From: Octopus sinensis
Lineage: Eukaryota
Direction: 5' to 3'
Assembly (NCBI RefSeq): GCF_006345805.1
Contig: NW_021836567.1
Coordinates: forward strand, 1-23,586
DNA: 23,586 bases
Part shown: positions 3,090 through 23,586 of the stretch, piece by piece
Numbering within the stretch: the stretch's first letter is position 1
How the letters are laid out: the number at the start of each line of letters is the position of its first letter
Program-made: the position numbers and the translations under genes
Notes under the pieces: generated by a model
Told to the model about the DNA's origin: nothing
Databases searched by the model: none
What the model saw: the letters and a program-made list of their open reading frames with translations, nothing else

Positions 3090-3975
3090 GTGCTATACAA
3101 TGCAGTAGAGTGCAATGCAAAATAACAGAGTGCACTGGGGTATATTGCAGTAAAATAACCATAGAGCAGAGTACAGTGCAATGCAGTAGAGTACGGTGGG
3201 ATAAAACAGAGTATAGGAAAAAGCAGTATGATGCAGTACGGTAAAATGGAGTAAAATATAAGAGTACGATTCAGTGTTGTGTAGTACAGTGAAAAATATT
3301 ACAATATTACAGTACGGTACAGATTGATACAGTAAAATACACTAGTGTAGAATACAGTACAACATAGTACAGTATAGGACAATATGGTATAATAAAATAC
3401 AGCTGTATACGGTATAGTACAATAAAGTACAGCAAAGTACAGTGGAATACGGTGCAATATCACGCAGTACAGAACGGTGGGGAACATACATCACGCATAA
3501 TATATGATAATACAGTACAATGAAATACAGCTGTATACAGTACTGTACAATAAAGTACAGCAAAGTATAGTGGAATACAGTACAATAAAGTACATCAAAG
3601 TACAGTGGAATGCAGTACAATAAGATACAGTACAGAACGGTGGGGAACATACATCACGCATAATATATGATAATACAGTACAATGAAATACAGCTGTATA
3701 CAGTACTGTACAATAAAGTACAGCAAAGTACAGTGGGATACAGAACAATAAAGTACAGCAGAGTACAGTGGAATATAGTACAATACGACACGGTACAGAA
3801 CGGTGGGGAACATACACCACAGTATAATGTATGACAATACAGCATAGTGCAAGACACTACGGTAAAATACAAGACCGTACATTAAAAGCTGTACAATGTA
3901 TTACTGTTTAATATTCTACATTAAAGCACAATATAATACCGTACAGTATATTACAGTACAATGCAATACAGTTTC
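3090..3975. repeat. Degenerate pentamer (TACAG/AGTAC) satellite with 163-bp higher-order repeat
   Basis: 5-nt periodicity throughout. The marker AGAACGGTGGGGAACATACA starts at 3471, 3634 and 3797 (spacing 163). Confidence 0.9.
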
Positions 3976-4540: not shown

Positions 4541-4619
4541 TATTGTATTGCTTTTCTCAGATTCCTGGGGGAGCTTGAATATGTTCTGCCAGTCGATTTA
4601 TCTTATATTTGTGTTAGAT

Positions 4620-4727
4620 GGGCCATTCATATGATTTGGGCCGTTCATATGATTTGGGCCATTCATATGATTTGGGCCATTCATATGATTTGGGCCATTC
4701 ATATGATGTGGGCCGTTCATATGATTT
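4620..4727. repeat. 18-bp minisatellite, 6 copies (GCCATTCATATGATTTGG)
   Basis: Six adjacent units with no spacers. Each contains the palindrome TCATATGA. Confidence 0.95.
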
Positions 4728-4767
4728 GATTTGACATTAAGGAGTGGAACGTACAATTTCCTGTAAT

Positions 4768-15078: not shown

Positions 15079-15256
15079 CTATTTTCTATTGACCAATCAA
15101 TATGCATATTATTATTCCTCAGATTGTATATTTCTATTGGCCAATTAGAATGTCCGTTTCTATTGATCAGTTAGAATCTACGTTGCTACTGGCCAGGTAG
15201 AATGTATATTCCTGTTGGTCATTTACAATGTATATTTCTGTTGCTTAATTAAGCTG
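15079..15256. repeat. Degenerate 26-bp minisatellite with ATTGG/CCAAT core
   Basis: Five contiguous 26-nt units at 15127-15256 (best unit TATATTTCTATTGGCCAATTAGAATG) plus one upstream unit. Confidence 0.8.
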
Positions 15257-19322: not shown

Positions 19323-19730
19323 TCAAGTTGGTCCCTGAATTTTGAACATTTTGCTAAACGCTTGCCGAACCTGCTGGGCTGAACTCCGTCTCCGGGGTTT
19401 CCCTTCCATTTGTTTTCGTCGTTTTATATCCCGATGTAAGTCTTGAAAAGCTTCAGAAATCTCACAGATACAGTCACTGGCGGACGTTTCAAAGAATGCA
19501 CAGGACAGCTCAATGGCCAACTGTCGGCCTTCAGACGATGTAACTTTCCTTTCGTGTAGTAAGTCGGTCTTGTTTCCCACTAAAACACAGTGGACGTTTG
19601 TTCGTTTCACCTGGTCCAGGTATTGTTTAATGTCTTTGACTTCATCAAAGCTGTCTCGGTCATTCACTGCATAAACCACAATGAAACCGTCTGCCCATCG
19701 AATCACTCCTTCACGGTGGATGCTGTCGTC
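19323..19730 (-). CDS. RERG: Terminal coding exon of a RERG-like (Ras-related, estrogen-regulated growth inhibitor family) small GTPase
   Basis: The 135-aa exon DDSIHREGVIRWADGFIVVY...LVGNKTD (G4)...FFETSAS (G5)...EGKPRRRSSAQQVRQAFSKM parallels recalled human RERG [20 protein letters not shown]...[20 protein letters not shown] and has no CAAX box. A pyrimidine tract plus CAG acceptor lies at 19731-33 (phase 0, just after the expected DTAGQ), so the track's ATG at 19736 is intronic. The TGA stop is at 19323-25. Confidence 0.88.
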   Translation of the reverse strand, partial: DDSIHREGVIRWADGFIVVYAVNDRDSFDEVKDIKQYLDQVKRTNVHCVLVGNKTDLLHERKVTSSEGRQLAIELSCAFFETSASDCICEISEAFQDLHRDIKRRKQMEGKPRRRSSAQQVRQAFSKMFKIQGPT

Positions 19731-20035
19731 CTGCATCAGATGAAAGAGAACAGAAAATTAATAAAAATTTATGTAAAATGTCAAAAAGGTTTTGTGTATA
19801 TTTGTAGACAATTACATACCAGAACTAATCAAAAATGATACAAAATTCATTAAAAAGACTGTGTGGATGCAAATTTTAGTTAAAATTAAAACTCGTAAAG
19901 CTAAGCCTAAATTTAGTTAAAGTTTAAACTCAATTTAAACCTGCACTTAAAATTCGTTTAAACCTAAACTTCGTTTAATTCAACCGAGGTTTGGTTTAAA
20001 CCTAAAGAAAATACACCAATCTTCATAAATTACTG

Positions 20036-22098: not shown

Positions 22099-22142
<44 letters not shown>

Positions 22143-22148
22143 TTACAT

Positions 22149-22215
<67 letters not shown>

Positions 22216-22240
22216 TTACATATATACATTTACATATATA

Positions 22241-22281
<41 letters not shown>

Positions 22282-22296
22282 CAATCTATATATTAC

Positions 22297-22360
<64 letters not shown>

Positions 22361-22375: not shown

Positions 22376-22389
22376 TTTTGAAGGAAACG

Positions 22390-22660
22390 GTAAATGGATT
22401 TGGTACGAATCTTTATTCTAGACGTTCTTATAGAATTCTACCCATCTACAAGAACGTCTAGAATTTAGATCTCTAAGAATATTTCCTTGCAAGCACCAGA
22501 GTTTGGCAAATGTTAATGACTCTATCACAGAATTAATATTTACATAATAAGGAAGCCCAGGAAATCTTTGTTGTTTTAAGATGATTTCCACGAGGGTGGG
22601 GAAGGAAGAATTGCGAAGAACTCTTCGACATCTCCGTGGGTAGTTTATGAAACTGCGATG
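22390..22660 (+). pseudogene. Penelope-like reverse transcriptase fragment, copy 1 (frameshifted)
   Basis: Across shifting frames it reads [12 protein letters not shown] (22412-), IYIIRKPRKSLLF* (to about 22579) and WGRKNCEELFDISVGS (to 22644). These match recalled PLE RT motifs FDIVEFYPSI / IIxHARKSLLF / WxKK..LFDVTMGS. Confidence 0.7.
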
Positions 22661-22689
22661 TTCTTCTCTGGAGATATCACAATACCAAC

Positions 22690-23034
22690 TAAAAAAATAC
22701 CTGTACAACATTAAACTATTCGAGGAGACGGAACATAAGAAGACAGTTCAGCTGTTTAGCAGATAAGCTTAACATTACTTTATACGTTTTCATGTGGTGG
22801 AATTCTACCCGTCGATCTCTTGTACTCTTTCCTTGCATGCTTCTGGCAAAGCGTATACCTCTACCAGTGAGTCTAATATTGGATATAATAATGAACACCA
22901 GAAATTCTCTGTCAGTTTCAACGATTAAGCTGAATATATGACGATTCGACTGGGCGAAGAAAAATTACGAAGGACTCTTCGACACATCTATGGGTATATT
23001 TGACGGAACCGAAATTACTGACTTCGTGGGCCTA
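22690..23034 (+). pseudogene. Penelope-like reverse transcriptase fragment, copy 2 (frameshifted)
   Basis: FIRFHVVEFYPSIS (22779-22820), LDIIMNTRNSL, then WAKKNYEGLFDTSMGIFDGTEITDFVGL (22951-23034). These match FDIVEFYPSIS ... LFDVTMGSxDGAEICELVGL. Confidence 0.8.
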
Positions 23035-23586
23035 AGACTGCGTGGGCCTAAGACTTTGTGAGCCTAAGACTTCGTGGGCCTAAGACTTCGTGGGCCTAAG
23101 ACTTCGTGAGCCTAAGACTTTGTGAGCCTAAGACTTCGTGGGCTTAAGACTTCGTGGGCCTAAGACTTCGTCGGCCTAAGACTTCGTGGGCTTAAGACTT
23201 CGTGGGCTTAAGACTTCGTGGGCTTAAGACTTCGTGGGCTTAAGACTTCGTGAGCCTAAGACTTCGTGGGCTTAAGACTTCGTGAGCCTAAGACTTCGTG
23301 GGCCTAAGACTTCGTGGGCTTAAGACTTCGTGGGCCTAAGACTTCGTGCGCTTAAGATTTCGTGGGCTTAAGACTTCGTGGGACTAAGAATTCGTGGAAT
23401 TAAGACTTCGTGGGTCTAAGACTTCGTGGGCCTAAGATTCGTGGGCTTAAGACTTCGTGGGTCTAAGACTTCGTGGGCCTAAGACTTAGTGGGCCTAAGA
23501 CTTCGTGGACCTAAGACTTCGTGGGCCTAAGACATCGTGAGCCTAAGACTTCGTGGGCCTAAGACTTTATGAGCCTAAGACTTCGT
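23020..23586. repeat. 16-bp satellite (GACTTCGTGGGCCTAA)n, about 35 copies, runs off the window
   Basis: Head-to-tail units without spacers. Variants include GGGCTT, GAGCCT and TTTGTG, and one unit is shortened by 1 bp near 23435. Confidence 0.97.

What the first reader, a model, noticed from the sequence alone, without database searches (positions are those of the whole stretch)
22951..23586. A satellite born from the coding sequence of a Penelope-like reverse transcriptase
Seen: the RT frame WAKKNYEGLFDTSMGIFDGTEIT runs without a break into GAC TTC GTG GGC CTA (D-F-V-G-L). Those codons are the first unit of a 16-bp array repeated about 35 times to the window edge, and they sit where the family motif ELVGL is expected. 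The RT never reaches its catalytic DD motif within the window. Known: PLE RTs are the closest retroelement relatives of telomerase RT, whose hallmark is reiterative copying of a short template. Inference: the array arose by slippage or unequal exchange after insertion (the simplest explanation), or by reiterative template realignment during reverse transcription of the element's own RNA.
Basis: partly seen in the sequence, partly recalled or inferred. Interest (0 to 1): 0.72.

Follow-up and report, generated by a model that had tools for sequence, protein, structure and literature searches.

The report
Minisatellite seeded from dead Penelope enzyme motif
A 16-letter repeat, found at only this one place in the genome assembly, is made of five codons of a long-dead Penelope-type jumping gene and was likely multiplied later by ordinary DNA copying slips, which makes it a neat but ordinary case of a mobile element seeding a tandem repeat.

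Summary
Observation confirmed; the telomerase-like reading is not supported. 22951-23034 is RT motif B' of a decayed Penelope-like element (profile E 3e-6 and 9e-10), related to Hydra-clade copies in the genome. The first 15 of the unit's 16 bases encode DFVGL, in register with the family motif. The array (35.5 units to the contig end) was found at no other locus of the 2.72-Gb assembly. None of 109 other copies carries an array of 5 or more non-simple units in the RT core; six carry two-copy duplications at scattered positions. The host fragment is old: stops, frameshifts, the motif-A Asp lost, 71% identity to a tandem twin. The array is 94% homogeneous, with shared, regionally clustered variants, which points to later DNA-level turnover. 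The junction is identical in short-read contigs of four runs and is present, about 5% diverged, in another species label. It lies in an intron of a RERG-like gene. The far side is missing from the assembly, so whether the RT resumes is unresolved. The scan noted RT-motif minisatellites before in other genomes (unchecked notes). Verdict: single-locus TE-derived minisatellite, a known kind.

The parts
23020..23586 (+). 16-bp minisatellite, 35.5 copies, cut off by the contig end
   Evidence: TRF; unit table: 93.6% mean identity to the majority unit; 27 of 36 differences are recurrent variants
23020..23034 (+). First unit, codons D-F-V-G-L: the end of RT motif B' and the seed of the array
   Evidence: In register with D-L/F-V-G-L/M/I of other copies; scores 13.0 bits on the family DNA matrix, reached by 0 of 77,045 background 15-mers (partly circular)
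22735..23035 (+). Decayed PLE RT fragment B, motif A to motif B', with a frameshift near 22875, stops, an insertion of about 18 nt, and the motif-A Asp read as His (22791-22793)
   Evidence: Profile hits at 22749-22874 and 22876-23040; 63-68% identity to the 8 best-scoring of 109 other copies
22410..22660 (+). Decayed PLE RT fragment A, covering the same part of the RT; likely an old tandem twin of B about 350 bp upstream
   Evidence: 179 of 251 aligned bases identical to B, score 146 against a shuffle maximum of 68; weak profile hits at 22412-22585 and 22594-22659
22378..22418 (+). 40-nt end of a separate, younger dispersed repeat family
   Evidence: 30 other places at 85-96% identity; no PLE RT at domain E below 0.01 in the 19 loci looked at
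22099..22338 (.). (TA)n microsatellite upstream of the PLE remnants
   Evidence: TRF; Hydra-clade PLEs are reported to insert into (TA)n (PMC8557442, section 11)
19326..19733 (-). Last coding exon of a RERG-like small GTPase gene; its upstream exons lie on other contigs, so the PLE remnant and array lie in an intron, antisense to the host gene
   Evidence: 97% to P0001 residues 71-206; exon 1 on C10233, exon 2 on C9950; the exon for residues 46-70 was not found

Best explanation
This is a single-locus minisatellite whose 16-base unit is the last five codons of a dead Penelope-like reverse-transcriptase fragment plus one base, and it likely arose and grew long after insertion by local DNA duplication (slippage, unequal exchange or gene conversion). 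Shown: unit origin, no second locus found in the assembly, decay of the host fragment, shared variants among units, presence of the junction in several runs. Inferred sequence of events: a PLE related to the Hydra clade inserted beside a TA run in an intron of a RERG-like gene, decayed and was duplicated once over about 350 bp; a chance 16-bp duplication then seeded the array, which turned over as multi-unit blocks. The array likely has no function.
For: Single locus: all 15 matches to the unit dimer and 30 of 31 two-mismatch junction matches lie in the window; the 31st is a lone non-array, non-PLE site. A doubled D-[LF]-V-G-x pattern gave 13 hits here and 3 elsewhere (control 2); those 3 are short simple repeats without PLE similarity. 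No array of 5 or more non-simple units lies in the RT core of 109 other copies (109 of 149 listed places fetched), and 103 of 109 run on 60 nt or more past the motif. Two-copy duplications of 16-35 bp occur at scattered positions in six copies, none among 42 young copies and six among 67 older ones (Fisher p 0.08; hand-picked list). Variants are shared: C13T in 11 units, all within units 8-27 (span P 0.003), G10A in 7; an independent-error null gives P of 1e-5 or less. Age mismatch: fragment B differs 29% from its twin while units differ 6.4% from their majority. Another species label holds the junction at 15 differences in 299, including a stop in the RT frame, and its array units carry other variants. 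TE-derived minisatellites are common and mostly single-locus in human (PMC3389668).
Against: No direct repeat flanks the left end in register: the 16 bases before the array match the unit at 1 of 16 positions (sequence), so the classical initiation model is not shown. The far side is missing from the assembly, so resumption of the RT, the clearest sign of an in-place duplication, was not seen. A contig in 2 of 4 runs suggests that non-PLE sequence follows a DFVGL unit. C13T adjacency alone is not significant (P 0.38). The young-versus-old contrast is not significant, and an automated detector found duplications in 7 of 109 copies against 0-6 in shuffles. The other-species contig has depth 4.9, under the tool's error threshold of 5. 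Turnover could have erased the traces of an RT-made seed. PMC3389668 itself suggests that initiation can be linked to retrotransposition.
Confidence: 0.85

Rival explanations
1. The element's RT made the seed or the first array at insertion, by realigning repeatedly on the DFVGL codons of its own RNA (telomerase-like slippage, perhaps at an internal priming site). DNA-level turnover reshaped it later.
For: [quoted passage not shown] Template slippage at initiation, likened to telomerase, is described for the LINE UnaL2 (PMC1636434 passages). If no RT follows the array, the array sits at the 3' end of the fragment, where cDNA synthesis would start; the loose-end contig is compatible with that.
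Against: No recurrence in 109 copies or in the genome-wide motif search. No duplication among 42 young copies (p 0.08). Variants are shared and clustered. The UnaL2 slippage needs a pre-existing terminal repeat, and no such repeat lies on the readable side here. The 16th base is not the family base. The region shows no unusual RNA fold (z -0.33).
Confidence: 0.07
2. The seed was made during repair of a break or deletion that cut the remnant right after DFVGL (a templated insertion at the junction with A-rich flank), then expanded by slippage. This is a variant of the best explanation that names the first step.
For: A contig in X1 and X5 lies on 23 bases ending at 23035 (depth arithmetic 22.98 and 22.93) and continues for 255 or more letters that begin with an A-run and do not read as RT. 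That would supply the non-family 16th base. Fragments A and B carry small insertions, one a short inverted copy.
Against: That contig was found in neither of two assembly searches, was not seen in X2 or X10, and its place in the genome is unknown. The other loose-end contig of the same call turned out to be an unrelated decayed PLE copy.
Confidence: 0.05
3. An unrelated minisatellite landed next to the RT remnant, and the DFVGL reading is chance.
For: Unrelated minisatellites exist in this genome: 5 other distinct non-simple arrays of 5 or more units in 489 kb examined, one 459 nt past a truncated PLE.
Against: The unit is in exact codon register with the motif; a random 15-mer reaches its matrix score with probability 2.7e-5. 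No source array was found elsewhere.
Confidence: 0.02
4. Sequencing or assembly artefact at a contig end.
For: The contig ends inside the array.
Against: Short-read contigs of 4 runs from 3 studies reproduce 22381-23075 exactly, and contigs of about 110 bp from inside the array match with no differences in X1, X2 and X5.
Confidence: 0.01

Closest known systems
TE-derived single-locus minisatellites (Ahmed and Liang 2012, PMC3389668; parts 1-3 of 4 read; supplements not opened)
   Same: Unit taken from inside a transposable element; one locus (5,747 of their 5,932 clusters are single-locus); growth by local duplication; initiation mechanism unexplained for most cases.
   Different: Their set is human Alu, L1, ERV and SVA with units of 20 bp or more and 95% or more identity. 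Here the unit is 16 bp, 94% homogeneous, and comes from PLE RT coding sequence.
Minisatellite birth between 5-10 bp direct repeats (Haber and Louis 1998, seen only through passages of PMC6947457 and PMC3389668)
   Same: First duplication by slippage or unequal crossing-over, then expansion by slippage, conversion or unequal exchange.
   Different: No flanking direct repeat in register on the readable left side; the right side is unavailable.
Hydra clade of Penelope-like elements (Craig et al. 2021, PMC8557442; section 11 and passages read; supplements with the family list not seen)
   Same: [quoted passage not shown]
   Different: The window holds only a decayed motif A to B' fragment at 63-68% DNA identity to its nearest copies, so the clade call rests on relatives.
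Template slippage at the 3' tail of LINE UnaL2, and telomerase repeat addition (PMC1636434, three passages read)
   Same: An RT can copy a short repeat repeatedly at the start of synthesis.
   Different: It needs a terminal repeat and a bound stem-loop, and belongs to the family's 3' end. This array is seeded in mid-ORF, in one old copy only.

Membership tests
Penelope-like element (fragment) | RT homologous to PLE RTs | tested here: met
   Profile of 19 public homologues, E 3.1e-6 and 0.0025; in-genome profile, E 8.8e-10. Pfam-A found no RT family in the fragment, the full ORF or four homologues; Atlas look-alikes carry RVT_1 and HTH_animal in 10-61% of members.
Hydra-clade PLE | RWK, DKT and CxCx5C motifs; C-terminal GIY-YIG | tested here: inconclusive
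   Met in the relative L068 (RWR, DKT, CNCRNKNKC, Y...YIG). These regions are absent from the window fragment.
Hydra-clade PLE | Insertion into (TA)n | tested here: inconclusive
   A TA run at 22099-22338 lies about 70 bp upstream of fragment A, but TA runs are frequent in this window and the element's ends are lost.
Hydra-clade PLE | Hammerhead ribozyme in the pseudo-LTR | not tested
   No pseudo-LTR was identified in the window.
Functional PLE RT | Open frame with the motif-A Asp and the motif-C DD | tested here: not met
   Asp read as His at 22791, stops, frameshift, no DD.
TE-derived minisatellite | Array overlaps the TE by about one period, unit similar to TE sequence | tested here: met
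   15 of the 16 bases of unit 1 are the RT codons in register.
TE-derived minisatellite | Expansion in place: units closer to each other than to any other locus | tested here: met
   No other locus found; shared, clustered variants.
TE-derived minisatellite (Haber-Louis initiation) | 5-10 bp direct repeats flanking the array | tested here: inconclusive
   None in register on the left; right end not assembled.
Satellite DNA (long or multi-locus arrays) | Many loci or very long arrays | tested here: not met
   One locus. Summed contig depth suggests at most about 3-5 kb; this is a rough bound and the tool warns that depth is no copy number.
Telomerase-like reiterative synthesis product | Recurs at the same template in independent insertions | tested here: not met
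   0 of 109 other copies; genome-wide doubled-motif search.
Telomerase-like reiterative synthesis product | Units are independent copies of one template | tested here: not met
   27 of 36 differences are recurrent; P 1e-5 or less. Later turnover could mask an original signal.
Telomerase-like reiterative synthesis product | The RT realigns on this template in vitro | not testable with these tools
   Needs a biochemical assay.

The most novel reading that the evidence does not exclude
A Penelope-like RT primed internally on its own mRNA and copied a 15-16 nt coding stretch repeatedly, telomerase-style, leaving a fossil of repeat addition at the 3' end of the insert that later DNA turnover reshaped.
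Probability: 0.07. Interest if true: 0.65.

Novelty: new member of a known kind. Interest (0 to 1): 0.2.

Why it matters
As found, it is a clearly traceable example of a known process: a dead retroelement supplying the unit of a minisatellite. The parent codons are still attached, and the locus is shared across species labels, so it could serve as a datable case of minisatellite birth or as a length marker. It says nothing new about PLE or telomerase chemistry. If the RT itself had made the array, it would be in-genome evidence that the closest retroelement relatives of telomerase can add repeats from a short template, which would bear on telomerase origins; the tests here give that no support.

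Tried and rejected
Extending the contig: impossible, the window is the whole contig. Finding the far side through the host gene: exon 1 is on C10233 and exon 2 on C9950. C10233 holds no array unit, and its one PLE remnant is elsewhere in the contig. Of C9950 only the last 754 bases were read, and they show no array. The exon for residues 46-70 was not found. The loose end behind 23035 was not found in the assembly. The loose end at 22775-22813 is a different decayed PLE copy on C2 that continues as RT. A DNA search with fragment B found no other copy (that search skips common words). Pfam-A named no relevant family. The dimer had 0 matches in viral contigs. The 52-bp x 15.8 array in L121 starts 459 nt past the motif, after the PLE similarity has ended, and does not read as PLE coding sequence. 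Comparing open and decayed copies for duplications was dropped as circular, because most of the duplications break the frame; nearest-neighbour age was used instead. I first recalled the family as Naiad; the paper shows that Naiads have an N-terminal endonuclease, and the motifs fit Hydra. RNA fold of 22951-23035: z -0.33. No RNA holder was listed, which is no evidence on expression. Literature: searches listed no paper whose title or abstract start describes an array seeded from PLE RT codons; most listed papers were not opened and the library is incomplete, so this does not show that none is in print.

Full report
Observation. The array is real: 23020-23586, period 16, 35.5 copies, 35 whole units and 8 bases. 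The frame WAKKNYEGLFDTSMGIFDGTEIT continues into unit 1 as D-F-V-G-L, but it opens only three codons earlier, after a stop at 22939. The window is the whole of contig C13038 of a 2.72-Gb assembly, so the array is cut off by the contig end. Earlier scan notes call the genome an octopus (unchecked), which agrees with the molluscan names among the nearest named homologues of the window's gene. Short-read contigs of 4 of 4 runs, from 3 studies and 3 species labels, reproduce 22381-23075 with no differences; one of them may be the assembly's source.

The parent. The 28-residue peptide found 150 scored places among 999 candidates in the genome. The top 29 read as the same RT region, several continuing to Y-R-D-D. 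I fetched 109 of the 149 other places. The motif reads D-L-V-G-[LMI] in 51, DFVGL in 3 and ELVGL in 1; Y or F follows in 93, T is the next base in 103, and Y-x-DD lies 17 codons on in 61 (the sample is biased toward the query). So 15 of the unit's 16 bases are RT codons and the 16th is not the family base. A profile from 19 public homologues of an open-frame copy aligns the window at E 3.1e-6 and 0.0025; an in-genome profile gives 8.8e-10. Pfam-A gave no RT family even for full-length proteins, and Atlas look-alikes carry RVT_1 or HTH_animal in part of their members. The open-frame relative L068 has RWR, DKT and CxCx5C with a C-terminal endonuclease-like region, the marks of the Hydra clade in PMC8557442 section 11. 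The clade call rests on relatives, not on the fragment.

The fragment is long dead. Fragment B (about 22735-23035) has stops, a frameshift, an insertion, and His in place of the motif-A Asp. A second fragment, A (about 22410-22660), covers the same RT part and is 71% identical to B (179 of 251; score 146 against a shuffle maximum of 68). The 8 best-scoring of the 109 other copies reach 63-68%. I infer an old tandem duplication. Both lie in an intron, antisense: the window holds the last exon of a RERG-like gene at 19326-19733 (minus), exon 1 is on C10233, exon 2 on C9950, and the third exon was not found. The array is therefore interstitial, and the DNA beyond it appears to be unassembled.

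One locus. All 15 matches to the unit dimer lie in the window, as do 30 of 31 two-mismatch junction matches; the 31st is a lone site without array or PLE. A search for any doubled D-[LF]-V-G-x coding motif at spacing 15-21 gave 13 hits here and 3 elsewhere, against 2 for the control; the 3 are short simple repeats without PLE similarity. The assembly is fragmentary, so absence elsewhere is not proven.

Other copies. None of the 109 has an array of 5 or more non-simple units in the RT core, and 103 run on 60 nt or more past the motif. Six have two-copy duplications of 16-35 bp, at about -323, -299, -288, -17, +213 and +290 from the motif (hand-picked; the one at +290 may lie at the edge of the PLE sequence). 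None is among the 42 young copies and six are among the 67 older ones (Fisher p 0.08). An automated detector flagged 7 of 109 against 0-6 in shuffles, so it adds little. The pattern suggests that seeds arise at scattered places as copies age and rarely expand, but it is not statistically firm.

The array's own history. The 35 units hold 36 differences from the majority unit (93.6% identity), and 27 are recurrent. C13T occurs in 11 units, all within units 8-27 (span P 0.003; adjacency P 0.38), and G10A in 7, never together with C13T. Independent errors from one template would give this with P of 1e-5 or less. Units were therefore copied from units. A 111-bp, 7-unit block stands at 2.7, 1.9 and 1.0 times flank depth in X1, X2 and X5, and summed depth suggests at most about 3-5 kb; the tool warns that depth is no copy number, so this is only a hint of block duplication and length variation. 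Run X10, another species label, holds the junction with 15 differences in 299 bases, one making a stop in the RT frame, and array contigs with 8 differences in 107 and in 117 bases (depths 3-5, so some differences may be errors). The array thus likely predates that split but is much younger in appearance than the fragment's decay.

The open end. In X1 and X5, but not X2 or X10, one contig lies on 23 bases ending at 23035 (inferred from depth) and goes on for 255 or more letters that begin with an A-run and do not read as RT. It was not found in the assembly. It may be the far side of the array, in which case the RT does not resume and the A-run supplies the 16th base; this is unproven. The other loose end of that call was a separate decayed PLE copy.

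Mechanism. Most likely (0.85) a chance 16-bp duplication at the end of the dead fragment, followed by slippage, unequal exchange or conversion. The unit origin, single locus and unit-to-unit copying are shown; the first step is inferred, and no flanking direct repeat is visible on the readable side. A seed made during break repair is a variant (0.05). RT-driven realignment (0.07) has a precedent in slippage at the UnaL2 3' tail (PMC1636434 passages) and in the kinship of PLE and telomerase RTs (PMC8557442 abstract), but it predicts recurrence and young examples, and neither was found. Chance adjacency (0.02) and artefact (0.01) are close to excluded.

Comparison and verdict. In human, 7,276 of 31,472 minisatellites are TE-derived, most at single loci, expanding by local duplication, with initiation explained for only 6%; the authors suggest that retrotransposition may trigger some (PMC3389668, parts 1-3 of 4). 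A review lists many TE-derived cases (PMC6947457 passages). Earlier notes of this scan report arrays seeded from RT motifs in other genomes, one with a recurrent hotspot (unchecked); a sequence look-up found no look-alike. This is a new member of a known kind. Interest 0.2.

Noticed in passing
   Followed up: partly
window 22416-22464: 14-bp inverted repeat (22416-22429 and 22451-22464) whose second arm lies in a 21-nt insertion in fragment A; possibly a template-switch scar.
   Followed up: partly
window 19326-19733; G000 C10233:593-670; C9950:28327-28392: RERG-like gene split over three unplaced contigs, with one exon not found; this orders and orients C10233, C9950 and C13038.
   Followed up: partly
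L068 (G000 C4:78517500-78523500), L067, L069: Long open PLE frames (960, 781 and 831 codons); L068 has Hydra-clade motifs and a long Asn-rich stretch between RT and endonuclease. 42 of 109 sampled copies are 93% or more identical to another copy, so some families are young.
   Followed up: partly
window 4619-4728, 3416-3842, 15131-15243: Other minisatellites in the window: 18 bp x 6.1 (94%), 163 bp x 2.6, 26 bp x 4.3.
   Followed up: no
L121 2043-2858 (oriented copy); L074 608-1300: 52-bp x 15.8 and 20-bp x 34.5 minisatellites; the first does not read as PLE coding sequence, the origin of the second was not examined.
   Followed up: partly
L139 (G000 C2:4820104-4824544): A PLE copy in which the DLVGL codons are missing and a 16-bp duplication of the next codons stands in their place; the whole is present twice, 1,369 bp apart.
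   Followed up: partly
window 23013-23035 (runs X1 and X5): Unexplained contig that matches the 7 bases before the array plus unit 1 and then leaves into non-PLE sequence not found in the assembly.
   Followed up: partly
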